Part shown: positions 38,453-40,528 of the stretch, in pieces | Numbering within the stretch: position 1 is the stretch's first letter | Layout: each line of letters opens with the position of its first letter | From: a virus | DNA length: 64,000 nucleotides | Reading direction: 5' to 3' (one strand) | Virus record (IMG/VR): IMGVR_UViG_3300029374_000001 | Coordinates: 128,001 to 192,000 of that record | Made by a program: the position numbers and the translations under genes | The notes under the pieces: generated by a model | What the model was told of the DNA's origin: nothing | Database searches by the model: none | Seen by the model: the letters and a program-made list of their open reading frames with translations, nothing else

Positions 38453-39955
38453 TTGGCTGAACAAAAAGATTTTTTGTCTATTAAGCCGTTGGATATAGAT
38501 AAATTTATTAAAGTAAATGAGCTCAAACAGATTACAAATCCGATCTTTTTTGTTTCTAATAATTCCCCCACTCCGGATGGGTTATTATCAAACGAAATCT
38601 TTGGGATTACGATGCAAGATCGGGCTAATACATTTGCTTATATCAATTTGGGTGGGCCTCATTTTATCCATCCATTGTTCTATTCTATATGGCAGAAGAT
38701 AGATCGTAACTTACCTCAGTGTGTACATGGTACTACATACTTCAAATTAACAAAAGAAGGATATTTAGAACCATCTTCAGAAGAAGATGGTGGAGAAACC
38801 GGATTAAAATTCTTATATAAGAATAGAAACAATATTCATTTCAGACCGGGATCTAATTCTATAGATCGAAAGAACAATATTAAGTTCTTAGAACGTTTTA
38901 GAGAATTTATGTTTATTCAGAATTATCCAGTTATACCAGCATACTACAGAGATGTATCTACACAGGATAGACATGTAGGAGTTGGAGATATCAATATGCT
39001 GTATGCTTCTCTATTACGTACAGCTAATTCTTTAAAAGAATATGACGAATATGGATTAACATTGTATGATTCTGTTATAGGACGTATTCAAGATATTTTA
39101 CTAAATATTTATGAATATTTTACTAAAGGTAATATCAATGGTGTTTCTACTGGATCTGGTATGGCAGGTAAATTTGGTGTTATACGTTCTGCCGTACAAT
39201 CTAAGACAGCAGATTATTCTTCTAGATTGGTTATTACAGCTCCAAATCTAAAAGTAGAAAATAGAGACGATATGTTGACAGATCTAGATCATGCATCTGT
39301 TCCATTAGCATCTGTTATTGTCAATTATTATCCATATATTTTAACATATGTAAGAAACTTTTTCTCTAATGAATATACATCGCAACCCGTTAGAGATTAT
39401 ATTATTAGAGATAAAAATGGTAAGCCAATTAAGACTGTAAAGGTTAAATTAAAAGATTTCAGAATATCTTTTTCTGATGATATTCTAAGAGAAGAATTAG
39501 ATCGTTTTGTACATGGTGTAGCAGATCGATTTAGACCTATTAGAATGCCCACGGAAGATAGAAAATATCCAGATGTTGGTATATGGTTTAGAGGCAATCT
39601 AATACCACCAGAAAAGATTAGAGATGAAACAGGATTCTTAACTCCTGATGAGAAGATGCCTATTTTAGAACGTCCTATGACGTGGTGTGATTTATTATAT
39701 TTAGCAGCAATGGAAGTTATTCAAGATAAGATGATATTGATTACCAGATATCCAATAGATAGCTGTTATAATCAATTTCCGTGTGGTATCAATGTAAGTT
39801 CGACTGTTAAAACAGAACCTATGTTAGTTAACGGTAAATTATATAAACATTACCCATATATTCGTAAAGAACTTATTGGAACGAATACAACAGACAAATT
39901 TATAGATACTCTAAATATGAGCAACCTCTATTTGTCCTCCGTGGGAGGAGACTAT
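38453..39955 (+). CDS. multisubunit RNA polymerase beta-prime-like subunit, N-terminal module, exon 1 (TTG start)
   Basis: Matches to bacterial beta-prime landmarks: PDGLLSNEIFG vs ERDGLFCERIFGP; AYINLGGPHFIHPLFY vs GHIELAAPVAHIWF; SAVQSKTADYSSRLVITAPNLK vs [29 protein letters not shown] vs VLLNRAPTLHRL. The ORF continues to 39985, but its last ~10 codons read into the putative intron. Confidence 0.7.
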
Positions 39956-40321
39956 AGATCCGATCCTTGCAAACTTAACATTTAAATATATGTTAGTATA
40001 TTTAAGCATGTTACATCCATTGTAGTCTTCTTTAACAAAAACCTGTTGAACTGCGGGAAAACGCATAAGAATATATAAACCAAGTTATGGTAGTAATACA
40101 CATAATGGCACTCAGTAATGATGAGTGGTATGGTAAAATCTATATATTTGCACAATCCGCAACCAAGCATCCTATGCTTAGTAGGATGAAGGCTCACAGA
40201 CTATCGAAAAGCAATATTAAATAATATTGAACCGAGTAGAGTAGGGAAACCGAAGTGGCAGGATATACTTTTAAGTATATATGATATAGTCGAAAGTTTG
40301 TAATTATTATTACAAAATATG
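39956..40321 (+). ncRNA. putative group I self-splicing intron (366 nt, no ORF) interrupting the beta-prime catalytic motif
   Basis: Canonical core elements appear in the correct order: P UGCGGGAAA (40051-40060), Q AAUCCGCAAC (40154-40163), R CAGACUAUCG (40197-40206), S GAUAUAGUCG (40283-40292). P pairs with Q, and R ACUAU pairs with S AUAGU (P7). Exon 1 ends in U (gacuaU, 39955). The intron ends in G (40321). A candidate internal guide sequence GUAGUC (40022-40027) is complementary to the exon end GACUAU. Splicing would produce ...SSVGGDY|DGDQVTVKPV..., reconstituting a D(F/Y)DGD catalytic loop. Confidence 0.6.
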
Positions 40322-40528
40322 GATGGAGACCAAGTTACCGTTAAACCTGTATATTCTATTGAAGCCAATGCTGAACTTAGAGAACAATTAAATTCTAAGA
40401 GACATTATATCACGTTAGCTGGTATGAATATTGCTCAGACTACTAATGAGGGTGTTATGGCTCTATATAGTTTAACTATGAATGGTACTGAACTGGGACA
40501 AATTAAATTTAATGATCCTGAATTTTAA
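40322..40528 (+). CDS. RNAP beta-prime-like subunit exon 2 (catalytic DGDQ segment and downstream helix)
   Basis: DGDQVTVKPVYSIEANAELREQLNSKRHYITLAGMNIAQTTNEGVMALYSLT aligns with E. coli beta-prime [53 protein letters not shown]. The polypeptide ends at 40528, consistent with a split beta-prime as seen in jumbo-phage msRNAPs. Confidence 0.65.
   Translation, partial: DGDQVTVKPVYSIEANAELREQLNSKRHYITLAGMNIAQTTNEGVMALYSLTMNGTELGQIKFNDPEF

What the first reader, a model, noticed from the sequence alone, without database searches (positions are those of the whole stretch)
38453..40528. Only the N-terminal module of beta-prime is encoded here, ending about 60 aa after the catalytic loop: a split multisubunit RNAP typical of jumbo phages
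After splicing, the polypeptide would be about 570 aa. It would span the clamp/zipper region, the [14 protein letters not shown]-like motif and the DxDGD loop, then stop at 40528 (…GQIKFNDPEF*). No beta-prime C-terminal half, beta subunit or sigma-like gene follows. Split beta and beta-prime genes scattered through the genome characterise the virion and non-virion msRNAPs of phiKZ-like and AR9/PBS1-like giant phages. This points to that kind of phage and predicts additional RNAP fragments outside the window.
Basis: partly seen in the sequence, partly recalled or inferred. Interest (0 to 1): 0.6.

Follow-up and report, generated by a model that had tools for sequence, protein, structure and literature searches.

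The report
Split RNA polymerase subunit, jumbo phage
This gene encodes only the front half of the large catalytic subunit of a cell-like RNA polymerase and is interrupted by a self-splicing intron; this split layout is the normal, already described arrangement in giant ("jumbo") phages, so the finding is correct but ordinary.

Summary
Window 38453-39955 plus 40322-40528 join into a 569-aa protein. A 366-nt ORF-less group I intron (39956-40321) separates them, inserted inside the catalytic Asp motif (GGDY|DGDQ). A 96%-identical relative encodes the same 569 aa without interruption, which fixes the splice junction. The protein covers the full PHROG family of jumbo-phage beta'-N subunits (E 3e-82). 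Its model folds like the AR9 non-virion and bacterial beta' N-terminal halves. It carries the GK..R…DYS.R and DYDGD motifs and ends 65 aa after the Asp triad, as hundreds of homologues do.

Nothing in the window resembles beta'-C, beta or sigma. The window is 100% identical to the two sampled stretches (17.4 kb) of a 260,122-bp metagenomic contig. A 1430-aa beta-like gene lies on that contig 4.5 kb left of the window, so the prediction of further fragments is borne out.

Similarity places the gene in the virion-RNAP set rather than the non-virion set. The Staphylococcus phage Madawaska orthologue is annotated as such and is itself intron-disrupted nine codons downstream.

This is a new member of a known kind, of low interest. 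Side observations: a free-standing HNH gene acquired together with the intron, and a 2.1-kb strand-specific 18-nt-periodic hexamer array downstream.

The parts
38351..38360 (+). TATATATTAT motif 93 nt upstream of the start codon. It has the form of the AR9 early (virion-RNAP) promoter core, but the conserved G six bases downstream is replaced by T, so its activity is doubtful.
   Evidence: The window holds 10 copies against 2.5 expected. Seven of them share TATATATTAT-N5-TGA. The AR9 consensus AAATATATATTAT-(6N)-G comes from PMC5312081.
38439..38444 (+). Ribosome-binding site AGGAGG, 8 nt before the TTG start codon.
   Evidence: Read from the sequence. Gene callers used the same start in relatives (P0001 begins MAEQKEF).
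38453..39955 (+). Exon 1 of the N-terminal beta' subunit gene (residues 1-501). It ends ...SSVGGDY, inside the catalytic Asp-triad motif.
   Evidence: Exon 1 matches residues 1-457 of the uninterrupted LPJP1 and Goe21 proteins. The 510-aa unspliced ORF is called as a gene on contig ERZ28634599 scaffold_22.
39956..40321 (+). ORF-less group I intron, 366 nt. The internal guide sequence GUAGUCUUC (40022-40030) pairs with the exon end GGAGACUAU (39947-39955), with a U.G pair at the 5' splice site. Core elements: P3/P4 at 40041-40057, the P7 region at 40195-40203 and 40283-40291, the P8 hairpin at 40263-40280 and the P9 hairpin at 40297-40316. The terminal G is at 40321.
   Evidence: Rfam RF00028 matches over the full model at 40.7 bits, E 3.9e-9, when only 416 nt are searched. 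The stretch is precisely absent from the close relative L003. Related introns occupy the same site in L007, L008, L010 and L011, with a compensatory exon/guide change. The core is about 76-79% identical to unannotated or intron-like stretches in Listeria phage LPJP1, Vibrio phage Va1 and crAss-like cr3_1. The fold z-score is -3.7.
40322..40528 (+). Exon 2 (residues 502-569, DGDQVTVKPV...FNDPEF) plus the TAA stop at 40526-40528. This is the natural C-terminus of the subunit.
   Evidence: L003 keeps a stop at the same codon, reading TGA instead of TAA.
40543..40576 (.). Perfect 34-nt palindrome (ATATATCCGAGTACTAT/ATAGTACTCGGATATAT) immediately after the stop codon. It is a possible transcript-end hairpin and lies at the left edge of the HNH cassette.
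   Evidence: It has no T-run, so it was not scored as an intrinsic terminator.
40530..41483 (+). A 954-bp insertion relative to the close relative L003. It carries a free-standing HNH homing-endonuclease gene (ORF 40600-41487, 295 aa) with its own TATATATTAT-N6-G motif at 40535-40544. The association with the intron is inferred, not shown.
   Evidence: The blastn breakpoints are. PHROG 3377 and 374 'HNH endonuclease' match at E 8e-36. The promoter-like motif is shown.

Best explanation
The locus encodes the N-terminal beta' polypeptide (N-beta') of a phage-encoded multisubunit RNA polymerase. It belongs to an uncultivated jumbo phage of about 260 kb and is most probably the virion-packaged enzyme.

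Shown here:
- The gene has two exons separated by a 366-nt group I intron that lies between the Tyr and the first Asp of the GGDY|DGDQ metal-binding loop.
- The spliced product is 569 aa. It contains the beta' N-terminal elements through the double-psi beta-barrel with the Asp triad, and it stops 65 residues later, as in every homologue.
- The gene is under strong purifying selection.
- A beta-like gene lies elsewhere on the same contig.

Inferred from the AR9 and phiKZ literature:
- The pre-mRNA self-splices.
- The 569-aa protein assembles with separately encoded mid/C-terminal beta' and beta fragments, without alpha or omega subunits, into an RNAP that is packaged into the virion.
- That RNAP is injected with the DNA and transcribes early genes from AT-rich TATATATTAT-N6-G promoters. 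Copies of this motif are over-represented in the window.
For: Homology and extent:
- PHROG 2986 'RNA polymerase beta subunit' matches at E 3e-82, residues 9-550 against profile positions 9-534 of 539.
- tblastn finds 297 phage records, 132 of them with at least 80% coverage. The best are Listeria LPJP1, Staphylococcus DC4/S6/PALS_2, Bacillus BpSp/Goe21, Fusobacterium and Yersinia phiR1-37 at about 27-31% identity.
- PDB sequence hits are AR9 nvRNAP beta'-N and cellular beta'/gamma, aligned over the GK..R..DYS.R and DFDGDQ motifs.
- The AlphaFold model has pLDDT 78.5. The top Foldseek hit is 7s01_d at E 9e-17, followed by plastid, cyanobacterial and bacterial beta'.

Junction and natural end:
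- P0001 is 569 aa, 96% identical and uninterrupted.
- The LPJP1 and Goe21 orthologues are 503 aa and end at the same place.

Intron.

Functional constraint: dN/dS is 0.043 against L003.

Jumbo genome and a second fragment: the contig is 260,122 bp and 100% identical to the window over the two sampled stretches. The 1430-aa beta-like gene matches phrog_3148 at E 6e-129 and Pfam RNA_pol_Rpb2_6 at 27.9 bits, above the 23.4 cut-off.

Virion-set assignment:
- The Madawaska orthologue is annotated 'viral RNA polymerase beta-prime subunit, N-terminal' and matches at 1e-56. The Madawaska non-viral beta'-N matches only at 5.8e-9.
- The AR9-like orthologue Goe21_01600 matches the crystallised nvRNAP beta'-N of AR9 only weakly (E about 1e-6), whereas the neighbouring Goe21_01670 is identical to the AR9 nvRNAP beta'-C chain.

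The split after the DPBB domain is described as common to vRNAP and nvRNAP in PMC7598289.
Against: - Pfam-A does not recognise the protein at E <= 0.01.
- Rfam's group I model scores below its gathering threshold (40.7 against 50), and the whole-window scans missed it.
- Splicing, assembly and virion packaging are untested.
- The virion assignment rests on annotation transfer and paralogue exclusion at about 30% identity, not on proteomics.
- The mid-beta' and C-beta' partners were not located.
- The AR9-early-like motif upstream of the gene lacks the conserved +1 G, so the timing of expression is unknown.
Confidence: 0.9

Rival explanations
1. [quoted passage not shown]
For: Both paralogues share the same architecture and split site (PMC7598289). 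The only solved phage structure hit is the AR9 non-virion beta'-N. No proteomic data exist for this phage.
Against: Similarity to annotated virion-set orthologues is far stronger than to non-virion ones: Madawaska viral beta'-N at 1e-56 against non-viral at 5.8e-9, and LPJP1 rpoC1 at 2e-71 against LPJP1 rpoC_2 (the nv beta'-N) at 1.3e-4. The AR9-genus orthologue is not the crystallised nvRNAP chain. The protein matches phrog_2986 at 3e-82 and phrog_2987 at 8e-10.
Confidence: 0.08
2. The intron no longer splices. Only the 510-aa exon-1 product, which lacks the Asp triad, would be made, so the gene would be a decaying pseudogene.
For: Rfam scores the intron below its gathering threshold. The P1 loop carries an extra insertion of about 55 nt compared with related introns. 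No experiment has been done.
Against: All core elements are present: P1 with a U.G pair, P3-P9 and the terminal G. Both exons stay in frame. dN/dS is 0.043 overall and 0.064 for the 297 nt spanning the junction and exon 2. The same insertion site is occupied by related introns in several lineages whose exon 2 is conserved.
Confidence: 0.03
3. A full-length beta' gene has been truncated by an assembly or sequencing error, or by a frameshift downstream of 40528.
For: None was found.
Against: The stop codon is conserved in independent assemblies (L003, L004, L012, L013). More than 100 homologues have the same length. The downstream ORFs are an HNH endonuclease and an IS110-like protein. No six-frame ORF of 50 aa or more in the window matches the AR9 beta'-C chain.
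Confidence: 0.01

Closest known systems
Virion RNAP N-terminal beta' subunit of AR9/PBS1-like Bacillus phages (Goe21_01600; AR9 YP_009283049 as cited in the Madawaska record) and of MarsHill-like Staphylococcus jumbo phages (Madawaska gp113, DC4 ORF23)
   Same: The domain content is the same and the C-terminal end falls at the same place. Identity is about 30-31% over 96% of the length. An SbcC/SMC-like ATPase gene lies a few genes downstream, a synteny seen in the fetched Listeria LPJP1 and Bacillus Goe21 loci. The Madawaska gene is also split by an intron nine codons downstream of the window's site.
   Different: Identity is only about 30%. The homologues are 503 aa, not 569. The Madawaska intron carries its own homing endonuclease, whereas here the intron has no ORF and an HNH gene sits outside the gene. 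The host and virion content of this phage are unknown.
Listeria phage LPJP1 rpoC1 (QXN67920.1)
   Same: It is the best tblastn hit (2e-71, 31% identity, 99% coverage). It is uninterrupted and followed by an SMC/SbcC gene a few genes downstream.
   Different: LPJP1 has its non-virion beta'-N (rpoC_2) 1.3 kb upstream, and the window has no counterpart there. It has no intron in this gene. LPJP1 does contain a sequence related to this intron's core at another, unannotated place in its genome (H1).
AR9 non-virion RNAP beta'-N (gp270; PDB 7S00/7S01 chain d)
   Same: It is the best structural match (Foldseek E 9e-17). It shares the motifs and ends a few tens of residues after the Asp triad.
   Different: It is a paralogue, not the orthologue: sequence E is only 6e-5, and it is 426-448 aa long.
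Cyanobacterial and plastid rpoC1 (gamma subunit) split of beta'
   Same: Beta' is naturally divided after the DPBB/active-site region. The review PMC7598289 states that the split positions coincide.
   Different: In my pairwise alignments the 624-aa Synechococcus gamma continues about 100 residues beyond the point where this protein ends: chain position 522 aligns with query 555 of 569. The break therefore seems to be earlier here. The cyanobacterial partner gene also follows directly in an operon, which is not the case here.
phiKZ virion RNAP (GP178, GP149, GP180, GP80, GP176; PMC7618050)
   Same: Both are split, alpha- and omega-less multisubunit RNAPs. phiKZ-like Pseudomonas phages are hit at E of about 1e-24 to 1e-27 over about 96% of the query.
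   Different: Identity is about 25%, the hosts are Gram-negative, and no intron is known to me at this site.

Membership tests
Jumbo-phage multisubunit RNAP, N-terminal beta' subunit (PHROG 2986) | Homology to the beta' N-terminal half, including the DPBB with the DxDGD metal-binding loop and the GK..R..DYS.R motif | tested here: met
   PHROG E 3e-82. Motif alignments to cellular beta'/gamma. Foldseek probability 1.00 to AR9, plastid and bacterial beta'.
Jumbo-phage multisubunit RNAP, N-terminal beta' subunit (PHROG 2986) | The polypeptide ends shortly after the DPBB, and the remainder of beta' is not encoded contiguously | tested here: met
   It ends 65 aa after the Asp triad. The match covers profile positions 9-534 of 539. 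Homologues are 503-590 aa. The downstream genes are an HNH endonuclease and an IS110-like protein, and nothing matches beta'-C.
Jumbo-phage multisubunit RNAP, N-terminal beta' subunit (PHROG 2986) | Encoded in a phage genome larger than 200 kb with phage structural genes | tested here: met
   The 260,122-bp contig is 100% identical to the window over the two sampled stretches. The window holds tail sheath, tail tube, large terminase and virion protein genes.
Jumbo-phage multisubunit RNAP, N-terminal beta' subunit (PHROG 2986) | Other beta/beta' fragments are encoded at separate loci in the same genome | tested here: met
   A 1430-aa beta-like gene ends 4467 nt left of the window on the same contig (phrog_3148 E 6e-129; Pfam Rpb2_6 above its cut-off). 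The mid-beta', C-beta' and second RNAP set could not be searched, because only about 84 kb of the genome was accessible.
Virion (as opposed to non-virion) RNAP set | Orthology to the subunit set found in virions | tested here: met
   Similarity to annotated 'viral' beta'-N is much stronger than to the non-viral paralogues of the same phages. This rests on annotation transfer only.
Virion (as opposed to non-virion) RNAP set | The protein is physically present in purified virions and injected | not testable with these tools
   This needs virion mass spectrometry. The DC4 proteome in PMC10638138 detected a different RNAP subunit (ORF67), not the orthologue ORF23.
Group I self-splicing intron | Conserved P3-P9 catalytic core recognised by the Rfam RF00028 covariance model | tested here: inconclusive
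   The match covers the full model at 40.7 bits, E 3.9e-9, in a 416-nt search, but falls below the family gathering score of 50. It was missed by the whole-window scan and by the 6.5-kb E-value scan.
Group I self-splicing intron | P1 helix between the 5' exon end and an internal guide sequence with a U.G pair at the splice site, and a terminal G at the 3' end | tested here: met
   GGAGACUAU pairs with GUAGUCUUC, and the terminal G is at 40321. A compensatory A-U to C-G change is seen in the L010/L011 intron.
Group I self-splicing intron | Precise presence/absence polymorphism that restores an intact ORF | tested here: met
   L003 and L004 lack exactly these 366 nt and encode the 569-aa protein.
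Group I self-splicing intron | Guanosine-dependent self-splicing | not testable with these tools
   This needs an in vitro splicing assay or RNA-seq.
Cyanobacterial-type rpoC1/rpoC2 split | Break at the same position as the gamma/beta' boundary, with the partner gene adjacent | tested here: not met
   The gamma subunit extends about 100 aa further in the phmmer alignment. No partner gene is adjacent.

The most novel reading that the evidence does not exclude
The ORF-less group I intron inside the catalytic Asp triad and the free-standing HNH endonuclease gene just after the stop codon form one mobile unit ('collaborative homing'). In this reading the HNH enzyme cuts intron-less beta'-N alleles at the DYDGD-coding site, and the intron protects its own genome. 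Both elements are present here and both are absent from a relative whose beta'-N coding sequence is about 90% identical. Exon identity dips to 79% around the insertion site, as expected for co-conversion.
Probability: 0.25. Interest if true: 0.4.

Novelty: new member of a known kind. Interest (0 to 1): 0.2.

Why it matters
It assigns the window to a jumbo phage of about 260 kb that carries its own alpha- and omega-less multisubunit RNA polymerase. It also extends the AR9/PBS1-like group to an abundant, uncultivated metagenomic lineage that is only about 30% identical to characterised members. About 1,260 homologues were found.

For annotation it shows three practical points. The gene must be joined across an intron. 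Pfam will not recognise the product. The AR9-type early promoter form TATATATTAT-N6-G appears to be conserved in this lineage.

None of this changes current understanding of these polymerases.

Tried and rejected
- The whole-window Rfam gathering scan and a 6.5-kb E-value scan found no intron. Only a 416-nt scan did.
- Pfam on the spliced protein gave nothing.
- I looked for other RNAP pieces in the window and found none. The searches were PHROG and Pfam on all ORFs of 200 aa or more plus a selection of smaller ones. I also ran phmmer of Madawaska nv beta-N and beta'-N, AR9-like nv beta'-C and LPJP1 rpoC_2 against all six-frame ORFs. PDB searches covered the five largest unannotated ORFs and tblastn against GenBank phages covered four of them.
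- I searched for a beta'-C homologue on the same 260-kb contig with the AR9 beta'-C sequence. No hit carried that contig length.
- The right-edge look-ups failed or gave only a 1.3-kb contig.
- I tested whether the 291-nt gap in the terminase gene is another group I intron. Rfam gave no hit, and it shows no similarity to this intron.
- A degenerate-pattern scan of viral contigs for the 18-nt-periodic hexamer array returned only unspecific hits.
- The beta-like gene gave no PDB sequence hit at 1e-3.
- I rejected the idea that the downstream repeat region is a recoded gene. The repeat spacings of 18/19, 36-38, 73 and 109 nt are not multiples of three.
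Full report
**Observation**

The ORF list and the raw sequence show a TTG-initiated ORF from 38453. An AGGAGG lies 8 nt upstream of it. The ORF reads ...SSVGGDY and then runs into a stop at 39985. A short ORF further on contains DGDQVTVKPV...GQIKFNDPEF and stops at 40526-40528. Joining 38453-39955 to 40322-40528 keeps the frame and gives 569 aa. GKFGVIRSAVQSKTADYSSRLVI lies at residues 239-261 and GGDYDGDQV at 498-506, so the protein ends 65 residues after the Asp triad.

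**The splice is real**

The strongest evidence comes from comparison with relatives.
- A search of the metagenomic protein collection returned P0001. It is 569 aa, 96% identical and uninterrupted, and it reads ...CGADYDGDQVTVK... across the proposed join.
- Its locus L003 lies on a 252,030-bp contig and aligns to the window on both sides of a clean 366-nt gap at 39956-40321.
- Other relatives have gene calls that stop at GGDY (P0020, P0033, P0073, P0087). Their DNA shows introns of 295, 432 and 897 nt at exactly the same codon boundary. The longest carries a NUMOD4-type ORF.
- All of these introns start just after ...GACTAT, carry a guide sequence (GTAGTCT/GTAGTCG) about 15 nt into the intron, and end in G.
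- In L010 and L011 the exon reads GGCGACTAT and the guide GTAGTCGAT. In the window they read GGAGACTAT and GTAGTCTTC. This is a compensatory A-U to C-G change in P1.

Rfam's group I model was silent in the whole-window scan and in the 6.5-kb scan. When only 416 nt were searched, it matched 40002-40315 over the complete model at 40.7 bits, E 3.9e-9. That score is below the gathering score of 50. The match shows recognisable P3, P4, P6, P7, P8 and P9 elements (coordinates).

The intron core is 76-79% identical to short stretches in Listeria phage LPJP1, Vibrio phage Va1 and the DNA polymerase gene of a crAss-like phage. Splicing itself is inferred, not shown.

**What the protein is**

- Pfam-A gave no hit.
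- PHROG 2986 ('RNA polymerase beta subunit') matched at E 3e-82 over residues 9-550, covering profile positions 9-534 of 539.
- tblastn against GenBank phages found 297 records. The best were Listeria LPJP1 and the Staphylococcus jumbo phages DC4, S6, PALS_2, SA1 and Madawaska. They were followed by Bacillus BpSp and Goe21 (genus Takahashivirus, which includes PBS1/AR9), Fusobacterium phages and Yersinia phiR1-37. phiKZ-like Pseudomonas phages, Erwinia phages and Aeromonas phages came at lower scores.
- Against PDB sequences the best hit was the AR9 non-virion RNAP beta'-N chain, followed by cyanobacterial gamma and bacterial beta'. The alignments run over [23 protein letters not shown] and NADFDGDQM.
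- An AlphaFold2 model built from 41 homologues had mean pLDDT 78.5. Foldseek matched it first to 7s01_d (E 9e-17), then to plastid, Bacillus, cyanobacterial and E. coli beta', all at probability 1.00. TM-scores are low, as expected for a multidomain fragment modelled outside its complex.
- The gene is under strong purifying selection: dN/dS is 0.043 against L003.

**The end at 40528 is natural**

- The LPJP1 and Goe21 orthologues are uninterrupted 503-aa proteins. Their last residues align to exon 2.
- About 120 listed metagenomic homologues are 540-590 aa long.
- The stop codon recurs in independent assemblies.
- Directly downstream lie an HNH endonuclease gene (40600-41487) and a 291-aa IS110-like gene (41652-42527).
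- No six-frame ORF of 50 aa or more in the window matches the AR9 beta'-C chain, the Madawaska non-viral beta-N or the LPJP1 non-viral beta'-N, apart from the beta'-N gene itself.
- PHROG and Pfam scans of all ORFs of 200 aa or more and a selection of the smaller ones found virion proteins, tail sheath and tube, large terminase, ThyX, RusA, SbcC and endonucleases. They found no RNAP or sigma domains.
- Five large ORFs have no annotation at all and show no RNAP similarity in PDB or GenBank phages. Very divergent small fragments, such as the gp244-like C-beta', could still escape detection.

**The predictions of the interpretation**

The unspliced exon-1 product is recorded on ENA contig ERZ28634599 scaffold_22, which is 260,122 bp long. 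Two loci fetched from that contig are 100% identical to the window over 5,533 and 11,889 nt. The genome is therefore jumbo-sized.

On that contig a 1430-aa gene ends 4,467 nt to the left of window position 1. It matches phrog_3148 'RNA polymerase beta subunit' at E 6e-129 and Pfam RNA_pol_Rpb2_6 at 27.9 bits, above the 23.4 cut-off. The prediction that further RNAP fragments lie outside the window is thus confirmed for at least one beta-like subunit. I could not reach the rest of the genome.

**Virion or non-virion set**

Jumbo phages of this group encode two sets of split beta/beta' genes. The beta' split after the DPBB domain is common to both (PMC7598289).
- The Madawaska orthologue (gp113) is annotated 'viral RNA polymerase beta-prime subunit, N-terminal' and matches the window protein at 1e-56. 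The Madawaska non-viral beta'-N matches only at 5.8e-9.
- LPJP1 rpoC_2 is the non-viral paralogue, 47% identical to the Madawaska non-viral beta'-N. It matches the window gene only at 1.3e-4, against 2e-71 for LPJP1 rpoC1.
- In the AR9-like phage Goe21, the orthologue Goe21_01600 matches the crystallised nvRNAP beta'-N only weakly, at about 1e-6. The neighbouring Goe21_01670 is identical to the AR9 nvRNAP beta'-C chain.

I therefore assign the window gene to the virion set with moderate confidence. This is annotation transfer, and no proteomics exists for this phage.

**Comparison with what is known**

All of this is described biology. The split alpha- and omega-less RNAPs of phiKZ and AR9 are well characterised (PMC7598289, PMC5312081, PMC7618050). 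Introns in their subunit genes are reported for AR9 and the MarsHill-like phages (bioRxiv 10.1101/2020.12.14.422802). The Madawaska orthologue is interrupted nine codons downstream of the window's site by an endonuclease-bearing intron.

One nuance concerns the split position. The review states that the phage split coincides with the cyanobacterial rpoC1/rpoC2 split. In my phmmer alignment the 624-aa gamma subunit continues about 100 residues beyond the point where this protein ends. I did not test this with a structure-based alignment.

**Mobile-element context**

Relative to L003 the window has two insertions. One is the intron. The other is a 954-bp cassette (40530-41483) carrying the HNH gene. 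Nucleotide identity between the two coding sequences is 92-96% over most of the first 750 nt. It falls to 79% in the 150 nt before the intron site and is 89% just after it. This pattern is what co-conversion during homing would produce.

This suggests, but does not show, that the free-standing HNH enzyme and the ORF-less intron move together. That arrangement is 'collaborative homing', as I recall it from cyanophage psbA work; I did not check that literature here. Against the idea, the ORF-less introns at this site in L007, L008 and L011 have no HNH gene nearby.

**Promoter-like motif**

TATATATTAT occurs 10 times in the window against 2.5 expected. Most copies lie in intergenic DNA and are oriented with the downstream gene. 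Seven continue as N5-TGA, which gives TATATATTAT-N6-G. This is the form of the AR9 early promoter recognised by its virion RNAP (PMC5312081).
- The copy at 38351, upstream of beta'-N, has T instead of the conserved G.
- The copy in the HNH cassette (40535) has the G.
- AR9 also has an early-promoter-driven endonuclease gene inside an intron of a late gene.

**Verdict**

The feature is a new member, from a divergent metagenomic lineage, of a well-known kind. Interest is low.

Noticed in passing
window 42590-44750: A gene-poor 2.1-kb stretch forms a dense, strand-specific array of the hexamer G[TA]A[TA]CA (GTATCA, GTAACA, GAATCA, GAAACA). There are 68 exact copies on the + strand and 3 on the - strand, against a background of about 0.8 per 500 nt. 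Neighbour spacing is almost always 18-19 nt or a multiple of it (36-38, 54-57, 72-76 and so on). The spacing is not a multiple of three, so this is not a coding repeat. The region is about 95% conserved in the close relative L003, where no gene is called, and is absent from more distant relatives (L007, L010, LPJP1). Its function is unknown. It could be an iteron-like or centromere-like protein-binding array, or a repetitive RNA. A pattern scan of viral contigs was unspecific.
   Followed up: partly
window 40530-41483 (HNH ORF 40600-41487): A free-standing HNH endonuclease cassette sits exactly between the beta'-N stop codon and the next gene. It is absent from the close relative that also lacks the intron. 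It has two N-terminal zinc-ribbon-like repeats (IGK.IGKYKI...QCLKCGY) and its own TATATATTAT-N6-G motif. No paralogue is present in the window.
   Followed up: partly
window 41652-42527: A 291-aa protein matches phrog_4285 'transposase' (E 3e-45) and, weakly, Pfam Transposase_20 of IS110/IS116/IS902 (20.8 bits, just under the cut-off). No DEDD catalytic domain was detected. It is conserved directly after beta'-N in L003 and L004 and lies next to the hexamer array.
   Followed up: no
window 2993, 19643(-), 29411(-), 30579(-), 38351, 40535, 41553, 43295(-), 44866, 48953: TATATATTAT occurs 10 times against 2.5 expected, mostly upstream of genes and in their orientation. Seven copies continue N5-TGA. 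This has the same form as the AR9 early (virion-RNAP) promoter AAATATATATTAT-N6-G.
   Followed up: partly
L015 1-4128 (contig ERZ28634599 scaffold_22, ending 4467 nt left of window position 1): A 1430-aa RNAP beta-like gene matches phrog_3148 at E 6e-129 and Pfam RNA_pol_Rpb2_6 at residues 1149-1349. It has no PDB sequence hit at 1e-3. I did not determine whether it is an N-, C- or fused beta subunit, or which RNAP set it belongs to.
   Followed up: partly
window 56483-57325(-) and 57617-59104(-): The large terminase appears to be divided. The 495-aa ORF matches only the N-terminal ATPase part of the TerL profiles. The adjacent 280-aa ORF has a weak terminase hit (E 8.5e-4). A 291-nt gap separates them. 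The gap has no Rfam group I hit and no similarity to the beta'-N intron. Intron-disrupted TerL is reported for MarsHill-like phages.
   Followed up: partly
L007/L008 (intron 295 nt), L011 (432 nt), L010 (897 nt with a 190-aa NUMOD4 ORF): Relatives at about 53% protein identity carry related group I introns at the identical GGDY|DGDQ site, with or without an internal endonuclease ORF. The window's intron differs by an extra hairpin of about 55 nt in the P1 loop.
   Followed up: partly
window 59199-61442(-), 30590-32434(-), 35367-37136(+), 54231-55628(-): Four large ORFs (747, 614, 589 and 465 aa) have no match in GenBank phages by tblastn, no significant PHROG or Pfam match (best E 0.028) and no PDB sequence match. 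The 589-aa gene is syntenic upstream of beta'-N in all close relatives.
   Followed up: partly
window 14-1321 and 3312-12293: The ThyX domain occupies only residues 261-403 of a 435-aa product, leaving an unexplained N-terminal extension of 260 aa. A 2993-aa protein carries C-terminal lysozyme-like and M23 peptidase regions and is probably a tail or ejection protein.
   Followed up: no
window versus contig ERZ28634599 scaffold_22: By the coordinates of L012 and L015, window position 1 maps to contig position 207,858. Window positions beyond about 52,265 would therefore run past the contig end at 260,122. The window presumably comes from a differently permuted or circularised assembly of the same genome. 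The two right-edge proteins tried for look-up were either not on record or found only on a 1.3-kb contig.
   Followed up: no
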